Of a stretch of DNA of 32,000 bases, positions 1,103 through 31,269 are shown one piece after another. Position 1 is the stretch's first letter, and each line of letters starts with the position of its first letter. The stretch is from an uncultured archaeon. Lineage in GTDB: Archaea; Asgardarchaeota; Thorarchaeia; Thorarchaeales; CAZPUN01. The stretch spans positions 1 to 32,000 of the forward strand of contig CAZPUN010000064.1 in the NCBI GenBank assembly GCA_964589775.1, given 5' to 3'. The translations under genes were made by a program, and so were the position numbers. The notes under the pieces are model-generated. The model ran no database searches. It was not told where the DNA came from and saw only the letters and a program-made list of their open reading frames with translations.

Positions 1103-3205
1103 TTGACTCCAAAGGCATCATCAAAAAAGAGTAAGAAGAGTAAGGCTGTAAAGAGTATGACTAAGTCAACATCAAAAAGTAAGACTAAGTCAACATCAAA
1201 AAGTAAAACCAAGTCAACTACTAAGACTGTATCATCAACTCCGGAACCTGTAAGTGAACCTACTGTTACTACCACGTCTTCTTCGGGTGATATTAGACAA
1301 GGTACAATTGCAAAATTCATGAGGAAGCGAACTCAACTAGTAGGTTTTGAAATGGGATTAAATAAACATACCCAATATGTTGTTGAGTTCCTTGATAATG
1401 CACTTGATGCTATCGAGAGTCTATGGTGGAAACGTAAAAAGAATCCAAAGCTAACTCCAGAACTGGATCCACAATTAATAGAGCATTTAAAACAAAATGT
1501 GAAAGCACAAAATACTGTTCAGCGTGGTAAGGATAAGAACCAGCAGACTCTAGTATCTCCAAAGAAAGAGAAGGATGATTTGAAATCTCAAATGCGTCGT
1601 ATCCGTGAATTTCTTGAACCCTTTTCACCTCTAATAAAAGCAGAGGAGCCGTTTGTCGTTATTAAGCTTGAGGAAGTTGTTTTTCCGGACCTTACATTTA
1701 ATGAAGACCGTAGCGATTATCGTGTATATAGATTCACAATTTTTGATTCAGGCGTTGGAATGGTAAAATCAGATCTTGAAAAATACGGCATTTATCTTGC
1801 ATCTAGTAAATCTGAAAAACTTCGCCAAACAAGAGGTAGTCAAGGATTCGGTGCGCCTTCAGCTTTTAGTGATGCACAAAACACAACTGGAAAACCTATT
1901 GTTGCTCTAAGCCGTAGATTTACAGAAAAGATGGGTATTTTTACAGAATTCTTCACGACCACTGAGAATGATAAAGATTATGTTATTCCCCCTACCGAAG
2001 TTCGGGTTCCATTTAAGCATGGAACTTATGTTCAACTGTATTATCTAAATATTCAATATAAGCGTGGATATGCCGATGTATATGCGCGTATGTCTGCTCT
2101 TATGAATGCGCACATAACTATTATTTTCATTGATCCTTATGGCGAGGTGGCAATATATCCACGTGGTGTTGGAGAATTTCCAAAAGAGCCGAAATATGCA
2201 CAGGCACACCCTGCAAGTGTAAATATTGGTGAGTTTCAAGACTTACTTCGAGAAACACCTTATAAGACATTATTTGCATTCTTGAGAAAGGCATTTACAC
2301 GTATAAGTGCAAACATGGCTGATAAGATTATACAAGAAACTAATATCGAACTAAAGAAAGAACGATTGCCCTTGATAAGCCGACGAACTAAGCCTGATGA
2401 ATTATCAAAGCGGCAAGTTGAGAAATTATATCGTGTTTTCGCAAGTCAGGATTATTTGGCACCTCCAACTGATACAGTTGTTCCAGTTGGTGAAGAAGTA
2501 CTCGAAGAGATCATACAAAAGACATACGAGCCTGAGTTTGTTGCAGCAGTAACTCGAAAGCCTACGAGTGGTAAAGGGCTTTCATTTGCAGTTGAAGCAG
2601 CAATTGCATATGGGGGTAAGATTCAAAATGCGACAAGTGCAACGCAGGTGTTATGGCGATTTGTGAATAGAACCCCAAAGCTTAGGGACAATAGCGACTG
2701 TGCTACTTGGAAAGCAACTGCCATGGTTAATTGGAAGAATTATAAAATTGATACATTTGATAATGGAATTCCAAAAGGTCCGGTGATGCTTTTTATTCAT
2801 GTCTGTGGTGCTTATGCGCATGTTATGTTCAAAGGTCAAAGTAAGCAAGCATTAGCAGAAGATGACGTACTGATCAAAGAAGTAAAACTTGCCCTTGAGC
2901 AAATTGGTCGTACTTTAAGGTCATATATAACCCGAAAGCAACATGCTACTCGTAAGGCTAAACGAGCTGGTATTCTTGCAATGTATGCCGACCTGTTCGC
3001 TAAGAGTATTGTAAACATTGCAAAAACAGATCCAAAAATGAAGAAATACGATGCCGAAGCGTTGGCACAAAAGATTCGTGATGCGATTGAAGGTTTTGAG
3101 GATGAATCTAAATCTGAATCTAAGTCTAGTTCTCAGTCTGGAGCAATAATTTCTGGGACTTCTGAAGAAAAGTCGACTGTATCTGAAGCTGCAGAAGGTG
3201 AGTAG
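1103..3205 (+). CDS. top6B: DNA topoisomerase VI subunit B, with a basic N-terminal tail and a GHKL insertion
   Basis: GHKL motifs EFLDNALDA, DSGVGM, SSK..RQTRGSQGFG and HGT; transducer motifs RFVNRTP and FKGQSKQA; directly upstream of top6A; TTG start. Confidence 0.96.
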   Translation: MTPKASSKKSKKSKAVKSMTKSTSKSKTKSTSKSKTKSTTKTVSSTPEPVSEPTVTTTSSSGDIRQGTIAKFMRKRTQLVGFEMGLNKHTQYVVEFLDNALDAIESLWWKRKKNPKLTPELDPQLIEHLKQNVKAQNTVQRGKDKNQQTLVSPKKEKDDLKSQMRRIREFLEPFSPLIKAEEPFVVIKLEEVVFPDLTFNEDRSDYRVYRFTIFDSGVGMVKSDLEKYGIYLASSKSEKLRQTRGSQGFGAPSAFSDAQNTTGKPIVALSRRFTEKMGIFTEFFTTTENDKDYVIPPTEVRVPFKHGTYVQLYYLNIQYKRGYADVYARMSALMNAHITIIFIDPYGEVAIYPRGVGEFPKEPKYAQAHPASVNIGEFQDLLRETPYKTLFAFLRKAFTRISANMADKIIQETNIELKKERLPLISRRTKPDELSKRQVEKLYRVFASQDYLAPPTDTVVPVGEEVLEEIIQKTYEPEFVAAVTRKPTSGKGLSFAVEAAIAYGGKIQNATSATQVLWRFVNRTPKLRDNSDCATWKATAMVNWKNYKIDTFDNGIPKGPVMLFIHVCGAYAHVMFKGQSKQALAEDDVLIKEVKLALEQIGRTLRSYITRKQHATRKAKRAGILAMYADLFAKSIVNIAKTDPKMKKYDAEALAQKIRDAIEGFEDESKSESKSSSQSGAIISGTSEEKSTVSEAAEGE
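1159..1218 (+). repeat. 24-bp coding tandem repeat (TKSTSKSK units)
   Basis: GACTAAGTCAACATCAAAAAGTAA at 1159-1182 and 1183-1206, plus a degenerate half copy at 1207-1218. Confidence 0.9.
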
Positions 3206-7444: not shown

Positions 7445-7458
7445 GAGATCCCTCTTAC

Positions 7459-7716
7459 TAAACACTATGCAAGAATGTATCGCTTTTAAAAGCGACGTTG
7501 AATCGCAATAAGAATCCATAAGTGCATGCATACAAAAATCAACTAATTTGAGAATTTATAGGGTGCGACTTGAATGTATGTGTCGCATCCAAAAACGTCT
7601 TCGGAAAAACTTGAGTATGTTGTATCTTCGTTGGGATACGGCGAGTTGCGAGAAATGGCTACCGCGAGGTAATCCATACGCAAAATCATCGTATTTCAAT
7701 ACGGAAAGTATATCAG
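7459..7716 (+). mobile_element. non-autonomous IS200/IS605-family miniature element, copy 1 (left end + omegaRNA-like scaffold + right end)
   Basis: Preceded by TTAC (7455-7458); left-end hairpin TGCAAGAATGTATCGCTTTTAAAAGCGACGTTGAATCGCA (7468-7507); right-end hairpin CGTATTTCAATACG, then AGTATATCAG (ends 7716); homologous to 25951-26143. Confidence 0.75.
7627..7716 (+). ncRNA. putative TnpB omegaRNA/reRNA-like scaffold, copy 1
   Basis: Stems TTCGTTG/CGGCGAG and TTGCG..ATGG..TACC-GCGA-GGTA..CCAT..CGCAA (GNRA loop), plus a terminal hairpin; covaries with the copy at 26051-26143. Confidence 0.6.
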
Positions 7717-8435
7717 TAAATATTTTTATCCAGCTGGGCTAGTACGTCTGGAAAGTTTTTGATACTTTCGATAACAAAATCTGCACCAGCAGCTTCAAGA
7801 TCTTTCTTACTTGATACTCCAGTTAGCACGCCAACTGTTGTGCAGCCAGCTCTTTTTCCAGAAATGATATCAACGTCCATATCGCCTATGACCACTGTAT
7901 TTTCAGGTTTCGATTCTAATTGTTTGATTACAAAAAGAATTGGGTCTGGATATGGTTTTGATTTAATTTTCAGTTTTGCGAGCTTGTCTGCGGTGAGTAT
8001 AATATCAAAGGCATCGTATATTCCAAATCTTTTTAGTCGTTTTGTGGTTCCCTTAATCTTAGCATAAGTGACGATTCCTTGTTTGTATTTCTCATGTAAA
8101 TTTCTTACAATTTCAATTGCGCCTTCTATTGTTTGAATCGTTCCTTCACGCTTTACGTATTCCTGCTTCATTGCTCTAATGAATTTTAATCTGTTAATTC
8201 GTGATAGTCCCAGGTTCTTTCCAACGTTCCATAAGAATTTAATCCAACCATATTTGCTTGGATTCGCAAAAACCTTTCTTCCTTCACTTATGATGGCTTG
8301 TTCATATGCACTAAAATCAGTTTCATTGGGTTTAACGATGTTGAATTTTCTAAGAAGAGATTTGAAAACCTCCCGAAGGAGGCTCATTGAATCTACAATT
8401 GTACCATCTAAATCATAAATTATGGCTTTGATCAA
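7713..8435 (-). CDS. HAD-superfamily phosphatase (phosphoglycolate phosphatase-like)
   Basis: Motif I YDLDGT, motif III KPYPD, motif IV IGDMDVD...GKRAG. Confidence 0.92.
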   Translation of the reverse strand: MIKAIIYDLDGTIVDSMSLLREVFKSLLRKFNIVKPNETDFSAYEQAIISEGRKVFANPSKYGWIKFLWNVGKNLGLSRINRLKFIRAMKQEYVKREGTIQTIEGAIEIVRNLHEKYKQGIVTYAKIKGTTKRLKRFGIYDAFDIILTADKLAKLKIKSKPYPDPILFVIKQLESKPENTVVIGDMDVDIISGKRAGCTTVGVLTGVSSKKDLEAAGADFVIESIKNFPDVLAQLDKNIY

Positions 8436-9947: not shown

Positions 9948-11248
<1,301 letters not shown>

Positions 11249-25627: not shown

Positions 25628-25950
25628 TCTTTTTCGCCAATATCTGTCATTATGAAGGATAAATTAAAATGTAATGCATTCTGAGTGGGTCAACAATTGT
25701 TATTAATTGACTATTATATAGTTTATGGTAATAAAGAAAAGAAAGATGTCATAAACTACCATATTTCATTCGACTTTAATATATAAAATACTTAGCACCA
25801 TGATTCTGTGTTGAAGTAATTTAGTGTATTAATATCAAATATGTAATGGTTGCGTTTGTTTTGTTTTTTCTAATGAGGTCGATGTCAACTTAATATGGAA
25901 CGCATAATCACCTTAAAAAATAGAAAAGAATTTTGAATTTAAGAAATTAC

Positions 25951-26143
25951 AAACTCTTTGCGAGAAATCATTGCTTTTCAAATGGTGATGAATCGCAGAA
26001 AAGGTTATTAATGACTATTCATAGGATAAATAATTGGAGCGTATTGTTTTCTCGCTGGAGCACAGCGAGTATATGCCCGAAATGGCTATCGTAAGATAAC
26101 GCTTAAGCAGAATCCTCGTATTTCAATGCGGGGTGTGTATCAG
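25951..26143 (+). mobile_element. non-autonomous IS200/IS605-family miniature element, copy 2
   Basis: Preceded by TTAC (25947-25950; boundary +/-1); left-end hairpin TGCGAGAAATCATTGCTTTTCAAATGGTGATGAATCGCA (25959-25997); right end GAATCCTCGTATTTCAATGCGGGGTGTGTATCAG; homologous to 7459-7716. Confidence 0.78.
26051..26143 (+). ncRNA. putative TnpB omegaRNA/reRNA-like scaffold, copy 2
   Basis: Stems CTCGCTG/CAGCGAG, TATC-GTAA-GATA (GNRA loop) and CCTCGTATT/AATGCGGGG. Confidence 0.62.
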
Positions 26144-26146
26144 AAA

Positions 26147-26226
26147 GATACGCCAAGTATATGTATGAATGGCTATTGCTATGTACCCTATGGAACCCGC
26201 ACATTTAAATGTGGGTAGTATGTTTG
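26147..26226 (+). repeat. third, partial and degenerate scaffold/right-end copy in tandem
   Basis: GATACGCCAAGTATATGTATGAATGGCTA aligns with both copies; ends in the hairpin GAACCCGCACATTTAAATGTGGGT followed by AGTATGTTTG. Confidence 0.55.
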
Positions 26227-29907: not shown

Positions 29908-31269
29908 TTAGTCTCTGCTTCCAATTCCTTTTATTCTGGCGATATTGAATTGTCGTAATGAAGCTACGAATTTTTCAGCATCTTCTTCTTCGCCTACCAA
30001 GAATGAAACTTTGCGTTTTCCTCTCGTAATGAGTGTAATTCTCCATAGTGGTAAAGCTGCTCCTATTAGATATAATACCGGAATTAATACTAGATTTGCT
30101 GGGAATTGCCACGGAAGAATTCTTGCAGGTGGCGCAATCAATATAAAATTGACTACTGTAAATACAAGAATTGCAAAGACCAATTTAATTCGGTCCCAAT
30201 CTGTACCCCATTTAATACCAATAATCGAATTATTGTTGATTTCTCTTAATGAGACCTCGAATGGATTTATGATGCTCTGCTTATCCTTTTCTATTTCATT
30301 ACTGATTATTACGCTTCTATTTGTGATGTATATCATATCTTTAATCGTACGTCCTCCAGAAGCAAAAAGGACTATAAATATGAATACAATAAAGTATGAG
30401 ATAATTACTAACCATTGTATACTTGGATTTTCAGGTAGTCGTTGAATCTCTGGGTAAAAGTATGTTACAAAAGACATAAGAATAACAGAAAGGAAAGCGA
30501 GTCCCAAGCCATATTGTCTTGCGATTTTTCGGCTTACTACAGGCTGCTCGATTACCTTTTCATCTTCTGGTAAGAGTATTGATGTGGGCGTGAATTCCAT
30601 TTCGAAGGATACGTTTCCTCTTTTTCGTATATTTCGTAAAATATCTACAAATTTATTTTCTTCATAGATTGAAATATCGTCCAAGCTCCATTCTTCGCCG
30701 CTTCGCATTTGGATTGTGAGATAGATCTCTTTTTGAATGCCCATCTTAATGATCAAGATTCCAATTAGCAGAACAATTATGAATCCTGCAATTGCTCCGA
30801 CTGTATATGGCGTAATTACAATATGTAGAATTATATCTACAAGGAAGAATGTTGCGAGTAGTGAATCTGCAAGAAGAAATAAAATTCCTATTAGAATTCT
30901 AAGCGGCATTATCTGACGTCTTCTACCAGCTGTGAAGCCTTCGATGAAATCATTTGGGAAATCTAAACTTCTTGTCTTAGTTTTTAATACTAATCTTCTA
31001 TTTGTTAATATAAGTGCAGAATTTGTATGCGAAAGCATGAATGTTATGACCGATAATATAATAATAATAGCTGATTTTGGACTGATTATTGTATAAATAG
31101 ATCTTTGCGATAATCCAATAAAGAATAGGCTACCATCCATTAGGACGCCACGGAGACCTATTAGCAATAACGCATATGAGACTCTTCTGATCCATCTGTC
31201 TATACTCTTACACTTTATTGAGGTGATTATATGTTCGTTATCAAGTTGAAATTGGCGATCTAAAGACAA
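29908..31269 (-). CDS. membrane protein with two repeated TM + PH-like modules
   Basis: Two halves, each with a TM pair, LILTNRRLVL or IYITNRSVII, a further TM pair and a beta-hairpin/helix end; GAGGTGA before the TTG start. Confidence 0.7.
   Translation of the reverse strand: MSLDRQFQLDNEHIITSIKCKSIDRWIRRVSYALLLIGLRGVLMDGSLFFIGLSQRSIYTIISPKSAIIIILSVITFMLSHTNSALILTNRRLVLKTKTRSLDFPNDFIEGFTAGRRRQIMPLRILIGILFLLADSLLATFFLVDIILHIVITPYTVGAIAGFIIVLLIGILIIKMGIQKEIYLTIQMRSGEEWSLDDISIYEENKFVDILRNIRKRGNVSFEMEFTPTSILLPEDEKVIEQPVVSRKIARQYGLGLAFLSVILMSFVTYFYPEIQRLPENPSIQWLVIISYFIVFIFIVLFASGGRTIKDMIYITNRSVIISNEIEKDKQSIINPFEVSLREINNNSIIGIKWGTDWDRIKLVFAILVFTVVNFILIAPPARILPWQFPANLVLIPVLYLIGAALPLWRITLITRGKRKVSFLVGEEEDAEKFVASLRQFNIARIKGIGSRD

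What the first reader, a model, noticed from the sequence alone, without database searches (positions are those of the whole stretch)
26051..26143. Compensatory changes indicate a conserved RNA fold in the 3' block of the mini-elements
Seen, copy 1 versus copy 2: stem A TTCGTTG/CGGCGAG versus CTCGCTG/CAGCGAG (G-U pairs become Watson-Crick). Stem B TACC-GCGA-GGTA versus TATC-GTAA-GATA (a C-G to T-A double change, both loops GNRA), enclosed by TTGCG/CGCAA versus TGC/GCA. Terminal stem CGTATT/AATACG versus CCTCGTATT/AATGCGGGG. AAATGGCTA is invariant. GNRA loops and G-U tolerance point to selection on RNA rather than only on ssDNA hairpins. Predicted guides 3' of TCAG are TAAATATTTTTATCCAGCTG (copy 1) and AAAGATACGCCAAGTATATG (copy 2).
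Basis: partly seen in the sequence, partly recalled or inferred. Interest (0 to 1): 0.72.

Follow-up and report, generated by a model that had tools for sequence, protein, structure and literature searches.

The report
Decaying mini-transposon with fossil guide RNA
This stretch is the end of one of about 40 old, protein-free copies of an IS605-type transposon in an Asgard archaeon; it still shows the fold of the guide RNA that its lost TnpB nuclease once used, but the copies are mostly decaying, and this kind of element is already known.

Summary
The stems and guides are at the stated places. The block is the right end of a protein-free IS200/IS605 element (PATE; copy 2 at 25951-26143, copy 1 at 7459-7716), with 44 hits genome-wide. 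The ends follow IS608 rules (TTAC/AAAG, GAAC/TCAG). Five loci from related organisms carry the empty copy-1 site, with no target duplication. Intact tnpA/tnpB elements of a sister clade have the same end design. G-U-forming and pair-breaking changes are equal (86:86). The cited stem B double change assorts independently (p=0.74). GNRA loops occur in 6/38 copies and AAATGGCTA in 19/38. Only 79% of pairs hold, against 95% in tnpB-linked RNAs. A modest excess of double changes (52 vs 35 expected) is real and mostly reflects founder lineages. Copy 2 has a broken pseudoknot and damaged ends, and its 'guide' is debris of an older copy. No TnpB or TnpA was found in this 97%-complete genome, and the exact parent was not found. 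This scan already noted the family on other contigs of this genome. Verdict: new member of a known kind.

The parts
25947..25950 (+). TTAC target tetranucleotide (left cleavage site, predicted TnpB TAM), outside the element
   Evidence: TTAC sits at or within a base of the same offset in most copies with a readable left end
25951..26143 (+). Copy 2: 193-bp protein-free IS200/IS605 element (PATE)
   Evidence: 108.6 bits with the family model
25965..25993 (+). Left end: DNA guide at +15..+18 (AAAT here, AAAG in the consensus, so damaged), subterminal hairpin 25969-25987, then GATGAAT
   Evidence: same layout in autonomous tnpA-tnpB element L093 and in 46 sister-clade left ends
25998..26012 (+). 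BRE/TATA-like site about 24 nt before the scaffold; weak
   Evidence: score reached by 11% of random 60-mers; not significant
26036..26050 (+). Remnant of the first hairpin (GGAGC with GTTTT; consensus 3' arm GCTCC)
26051..26069 (+). Stem A, the pseudoknot ('nexus') hairpin; 7/7 pairs; variant shared with the foreign copy L026
26074..26109 (+). Interrupted stem: outer helix 26074-26077/26106-26109 (3 of 4 pairs) and stem B 26084-26101 (5 of 7 pairs, GTAA loop)
26110..26133 (+). Right-end DNA guide (GAAT here, GAAC in the consensus) and subterminal hairpin with TTCA loop; serves both as TnpA ssDNA signal and as last omegaRNA stem
   Evidence: IS608 rules in PMC5934647
26138..26143 (+). 3' pseudoknot strand (26138-26141; only 2 of 4 pairs possible with loop 26059-26062 in this copy) and TCAG right cleavage site
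26144..26163 (+). 3' flank in guide position; mostly part of an older decayed scaffold
   Evidence: alignment to the family consensus
26147..26226 (+). Second, partial and more decayed 3' block directly behind copy 2
   Evidence: nhmmer E 1.3e-11; cmsearch E 5e-5
7455..7458 (+). TTAC target of copy 1, also present at the empty site in related organisms
   Evidence: L001, L017-L020
7459..7716 (+). Copy 1: 258-bp PATE between radA and a HAD hydrolase gene; pseudoknot 4/4 pairs, both DNA guides damaged (AATG, AAAT)

Best explanation
The block is the 3' end of a non-autonomous IS200/IS605 (IS605/IS1341-type) element that lost tnpA and almost all of tnpB by internal deletion but kept both ends and the omegaRNA scaffold that overlapped the tnpB 3' end. 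Shown: many dispersed copies; insertion 3' of TTAC without duplication; IS608-type guide and cleavage pairs; same end design as intact tnpA/tnpB elements; a consensus fold of first hairpin, pseudoknot hairpin, interrupted stem and right-end hairpin. Inferred: a Y1 TnpA acting in trans spread several founder variants by peel-and-paste. In the parent, the RNA (scaffold plus 3' flank) guided TnpB to the empty TTAC+flank site. TnpA and TnpB were then lost or are unassembled, and the copies have since decayed, mainly by C-to-T and G-to-A changes. The fold is an ancestral property. Most differences between copies 1 and 2 are decay, plus one real founder difference in stem A. Copy 2 is probably neither mobile nor a working guide.
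For: 44 hits on 27 contigs. Empty site with TTAC and no duplication in five loci from related organisms. Left end TTAC+14 nt+AAAG+hairpin+GATGAAT matches autonomous element L093. Right end GAAC+hairpin+AGTATGTCAG matches about 45 of 50 tnpB elements of the sister clade. The pseudoknot loop pairs with the 3' end in the consensus, in L026 and fully in 18/38 copies; this is a universal omegaRNA feature (10.1101/2023.11.20.567912; PMC12558985). Weak Rfam HgcC similarity: L028 E 0.42, sister L130 E 0.002. Decay: 79% of cells paired; T.G 86 vs C.A 86; no copy keeps all 30 pairs; 55% of substitutions are C>T or G>A. Median pairwise identity 63%, maximum 90%. Star-like tree. Positive control of tnpB-linked omegaRNAs: 95% paired, pseudoknot 98%, T.G 37 vs C.A 14, p=0.002. 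No TnpB or TnpA in the genome.
Against: The parent tnpB element with this exact scaffold was not found. The sister clade shares only the ends and topology (best cmsearch hit 31 bits). A residual excess of C-G to T-A double changes remains (52 vs 34.7; 35 vs 28.3, p=0.04, after post hoc removal of lineage-sharing copies), and paired C mutates to T less often than unpaired C (22% vs 33%, p=0.002), so some constraint cannot be excluded. The assembly is 96.75% complete and IS genes often fail to assemble.
Confidence: 0.85

Rival explanations
1. The copies, or a subset including copy 2, are transcribed standalone omegaRNAs still under selection as trans-acting guides or as exapted host RNAs.
For: Excess of double changes and lower C>T rate in stems. 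Deletion in copy 2 places a TATA-like site about 24 nt before the scaffold, as in the intact foreign copy L026. PATE-derived RNAs are transcribed in Halobacterium (PMC4615843), and standalone omegaRNAs act in trans (PMC10691335).
Against: No wobble bias (86:86). Pseudoknot broken in copy 2, and pseudoknot loss abolishes TnpB cleavage in a tested system. No TnpB in the genome. None of 16 guides has a TTAC-flanked target in the genome. The promoter score is not significant. The orthologous intervals of related organisms lack the copies.
Confidence: 0.1
2. The stems were kept only as ssDNA signals for TnpA, or made more perfect by palindrome-templated repair, and the inner block was never an RNA scaffold.
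For: The symmetric wobble/mismatch pattern is not RNA-specific. The terminal hairpin is needed by TnpA as DNA. Template-switch repair of palindromes gives double changes without selection (my knowledge, not tested).
Against: TnpA needs only the subterminal hairpin. The three further helices, the loop-to-end pseudoknot, the position about 125 nt behind a frameshifted trace resembling the TnpB C-terminal motif, and the HgcC similarity all match omegaRNA anatomy.
Confidence: 0.05

Closest known systems
PATEs (palindrome-associated transposable elements) of Haloquadratum (PMC3119063), Halobacterium (PMC4615843) and Geobacillus stearothermophilus (PMC10055086)
   Same: Protein-free, subterminal palindromes, no terminal inverted repeats, no target duplication, derived from IS605-type elements by core deletion, heterogeneous copies. 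Meers et al. state that PATEs often encode omegaRNAs.
   Different: Asgard host; scaffold sequence not matched by any element found; no helper TnpA or TnpB found in the assembly.
TnpB omegaRNA / reRNA / sotRNA, incl. Rfam HgcC (RF00062)
   Same: [quoted passage not shown]
   Different: Scores far below the Rfam gathering threshold (18.8 vs 50 bits for the best copy, no hit in the window); no tnpB upstream; fold degraded in every copy.
IS608 (Helicobacter pylori) ends
   Same: TTAC target with AAAG guide 5' of the left hairpin; right guide 5' of the right hairpin pairing with the terminal tetranucleotide.
   Different: Right pair is GAAC/TCAG instead of GAAT/TCAA (a matched change at position 4; one sister element, L183, has GAAT/TCAA); AAAG sits at +15..+18 rather than +16..+19.
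Archaeal IS605 tnpA-tnpB clade fetched here (L093, L120-L290; Thorarchaeota, Thermoplasmata, Methanosarcinales, Micrarchaeota, Bathyarchaeia)
   Same: Same left-end and right-end motifs and the same order of RNA helices with a pseudoknot.
   Different: The inner scaffold sequence differs (6-bp pseudoknot, different second stem), so it is a sister group and not the direct parent.

Membership tests
PATE / non-autonomous IS200/IS605 element | Subterminal hairpins at both ends, no terminal inverted repeats | tested here: met
PATE / non-autonomous IS200/IS605 element | Insertion 3' of a fixed tetranucleotide without target duplication | tested here: met
   Empty copy-1 site in L001, L017-L020; no comparable empty site for copy 2 because that interval is replaced in L021/L022
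PATE / non-autonomous IS200/IS605 element | DNA guide tetranucleotides matching the cleavage sites | tested here: met
   Consensus AAAG/TTAC and GAAC/TCAG; damaged in copies 1 and 2 themselves
PATE / non-autonomous IS200/IS605 element | No transposase or nuclease ORF; multiple dispersed copies | tested here: met
   about 190-270 bp; 44 hits on 27 contigs
PATE / non-autonomous IS200/IS605 element | Mobilised in trans by a Y1 TnpA | not testable with these tools
   No TnpA in the assembly; needs an excision assay
TnpB omegaRNA | Lies at the right end, with the guide beginning after the cleavage site | tested here: met
   Conservation stops at TCAG; flanks are unrelated
TnpB omegaRNA | Three stem-loops plus pseudoknot to the 3' end | tested here: met
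   Met for the consensus, L026 (z -6.2) and copy 1; pseudoknot not met in copy 2 (2/4)
TnpB omegaRNA | Covariation typical of a selected RNA among extant copies | tested here: inconclusive
   Modest double-change excess, but 79% pairing and no wobble bias against 95% in the positive control; R-scape not available
TnpB omegaRNA | Overlaps or follows a tnpB gene; cognate TnpB present | tested here: not met
   only a frameshifted trace read by eye in one subfamily
TnpB omegaRNA | Transcribed and bound by TnpB | not testable with these tools
   Needs RNA data from the host community and a binding assay
Rfam HgcC (RF00062) | Reaches the gathering score of 50 bits | tested here: not met
   18.8 bits for L028, none for the window

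The most novel reading that the evidence does not exclude
The scaffold is an undescribed omegaRNA subfamily that also travels as a promoter-driven standalone guide (as the intact copy L026 suggests), and a few copies here, such as the promoter-fused copy 2, are still transcribed and retained for a function in a host that has no TnpB of its own.
Probability: 0.07. Interest if true: 0.55.

Novelty: new member of a known kind. Interest (0 to 1): 0.2.

Why it matters
As it stands it documents an old IS605 burst in an Asgard archaeon and supplies a new omegaRNA scaffold variant with a predicted TTAC TAM. It is also a clear case of neutral C>T/G>A decay imitating G-U tolerance and compensatory change when only two copies are compared. 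It would matter more only if copies proved to be transcribed and used without a resident TnpB.

Tried and rejected
Rfam scan of the window: no hit. Searches for the parent tnpB found nothing in those searched: RNA model over 150 Asgard genomes and 150 genomes each of two other archaeal phyla; four exact patterns in GTDB genomes; three in viral contigs; blastn in plasmids and phages. The metagenome pattern scan gave only L025 (same organism) and L026. TTAC+guide targets: none in the genome or in viral contigs. Sequencing runs: no RNA holder listed; contigs of run X1, possibly the source sample, cover copy 2. RNAalifold on the copies recovered only 4 pairs. The outer helix was mis-indexed; all whole-structure pair statistics quoted come from the corrected (other helices were unaffected). 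Leaving out lineage-sharing copies was post hoc. Handles search of the sister-species assemblies was not possible. The promoter idea gave a non-significant score. CRISPR, riboswitch and terminator readings were rejected because of the TTAC/empty-site evidence and the IS608-type ends.

Full report
Observation. The copies are homologous (E 4e-8) and fold better than shuffles (z about -2.9). Rfam has no match in the window. The host is an Asgard archaeon: RadA and Topo VI in the window, ESCRT-II, Vps4 and roadblock genes in orthologous loci. It is in the same GTDB order as a genome whose tnpB locus is identical to one titled Ca. Thorarchaeota (the order assignment is my inference). The genome is 2.16 Mb and 96.75% complete.

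What it is. Iterated nhmmer finds 44 hits on 27 contigs. Full copies are about 190-270 bp. They start after TTAC, carry AAAG at +15..+18 before a hairpin and GATGAAT, have a variable middle, and end with GAAC, a hairpin and AGTATGTCAG. Five loci from related organisms carry the radA-HAD interval without copy 1; there TTAC is followed directly by sequence like the right flank, with no duplication. These are the IS608 rules (TTAC/AAAG, TCAA/GAAT; PMC5934647), with a matched change to TCAG/GAAC. Among 30 Asgard TnpB loci, three end in the same right-end design. One, L093, is an autonomous tnpA-tnpB element with the same left-end layout. About 45 of 50 relatives from many archaea share the right end, and 46 left ends share the AAAG-hairpin-GATGAAT layout. 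The element is therefore a protein-free IS200/IS605 derivative, a PATE (PMC3119063; PMC10055086). No TnpB or TnpA was found in the genome by Pfam, by a clade profile or by tblastn with 141 TnpBs.

The fold. The consensus and an intact copy on a contig from a different organism (L026, z -6.2) give four elements: a first hairpin, stem A, an interrupted stem whose inner helix is the 7-bp stem B, and the right-end hairpin with a YTCA loop. The stem A loop (GRYA) can pair with TGYC just before the end. This pseudoknot from the second hairpin to the 3' end is a general omegaRNA feature and is needed for TnpB cleavage in a tested system. The sister-clade RNAs have the same order of helices and a 6-bp pseudoknot, but a different inner sequence. 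Rfam HgcC, which shares the right-end tetraloop of tnpB-associated RNAs (PMC4615843), is the only family hit, far below threshold. One subfamily keeps a frameshifted trace resembling the TnpB C-terminal D-x-N-G-A-x-N-I motif about 125 nt before the end (read by eye). The direct parent was not found.

On 38 genomic copies (corrected), 79% of cells pair and no copy keeps all 30 pairs (median 24). At 19 consensus C-G pairs, the wobble-forming T.G and the pair-breaking C.A states are equally common, 86 and 86. Selection on an RNA of this strand predicts a wobble excess, and the positive control of 42 tnpB-linked omegaRNAs shows it (95% paired, 37 vs 14, p=0.002). G>A rates are the same in stems and loops (22% vs 24%), and C>T plus G>A make up 55% of all changes. 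The tree is star-like: 9.9 of 11.1 substitutions per site lie on terminal branches and no node reaches 95% support. There is a real but modest signal: double changes number 52 against 34.7 +/- 4.1 under a null that keeps copy and pair margins. This falls to 35 against 28.3 (p=0.04) when lineage-sharing copies are left out post hoc. C>T is also rarer in stems than in loops (22% vs 33%, p=0.002). The clearest true compensations mark founder lineages: the stem A variant of copy 2 is shared with foreign L026, and a four-copy clade has an alternative terminal stem. So the fold is ancestral, and present-day selection is not shown.

Copy 2 itself. Its left DNA guide reads AAAT, its right guide GAAT against TCAG, two outer pairs of stem B are broken, and only 2 of 4 pseudoknot pairs can form. 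Its 3' flank is the start of a second, more decayed scaffold at 26147-26226, so the 'guide' is transposon debris. No TTAC-flanked target exists in the genome for any of 16 guides tested.

Mechanism. Inferred: internal deletion of an IS605-type element; spread in trans by a Y1 TnpA via ssDNA excision at TTAC/TCAG; in the parent, an omegaRNA guiding TnpB to the vacated site (PMC10055086); then loss of the proteins and mutational decay. Shown here: ends, empty site, copy number, fold, decay pattern, absence of the proteins from the assembly. Confidence 0.85. Rivals: still-functional standalone omegaRNAs (0.10); stems that were never an RNA scaffold (0.05).

Novelty. PATEs that keep an omegaRNA, and standalone omegaRNAs, are described. 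Earlier notes of this scan reported the same family on other contigs of this genome; I had reached this reading before looking them up and tested it here. The scaffold sequence appears new, the kind does not. Interest 0.2.

Noticed in passing
L026:745-866 (-) (JGI contig Ga0209834_10083414): A fully intact copy of the scaffold in a different organism (all stems and the pseudoknot perfect, z -6.2), with no left end. It has a TATA-like box about 25 nt upstream, a divergent small ribbon-helix-helix-like ORF, and a region of short GCGAGCCA repeats downstream. It is a candidate standalone omegaRNA.
   Followed up: partly
G000 C61:22725-22790 (in L034), C56:44404-44457, C15:11054-11107: A second, younger family: three copies (93-96% identical) of an about 50-bp terminal-only PATE (TTAC, AAAG, one shared hairpin, AGTATGTCAG) of the sister-clade type. 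One lies next to a 3' block of the main family in reverse orientation. This suggests a compatible TnpA was active more recently.
   Followed up: partly
window 7713-7730: Copy 1 inserted into the end of the HAD hydrolase gene on the minus strand: the predicted original TAG stop is split and the element's TCA supplies a new TGA, adding one Tyr.
   Followed up: partly
G000 C21:44300-44489 (L035): A copy with its right-end hairpin repeated after a short unique spacer that contains TTAC, giving a repeat-spacer-repeat look; probably a partial duplication or nested end.
   Followed up: no
window 25882-25920, 31214-31252 (-) and 10044-10075: A separate dispersed AT-rich repeat of about 39 bp (79% inverted match), unrelated to the element; many contigs in the read-laying piled up near 10016-10640. 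Unexplained.
   Followed up: no
L025 versus G000 C57:6046-6401: The same locus in another sample has TTAT in place of the TTAC target, a C>T polymorphism in keeping with ongoing decay.
   Followed up: no
L021:6794-7642: In a related organism the interval that holds copy 2 instead carries a different, AT-rich gene region (52-aa and 188-aa ORFs), so this site is a turnover hotspot and gives no clean empty allele.
   Followed up: partly
window 1150-1225: Three tandem 24-bp repeats in the N-terminal part of the Topo VI B gene.
   Followed up: no
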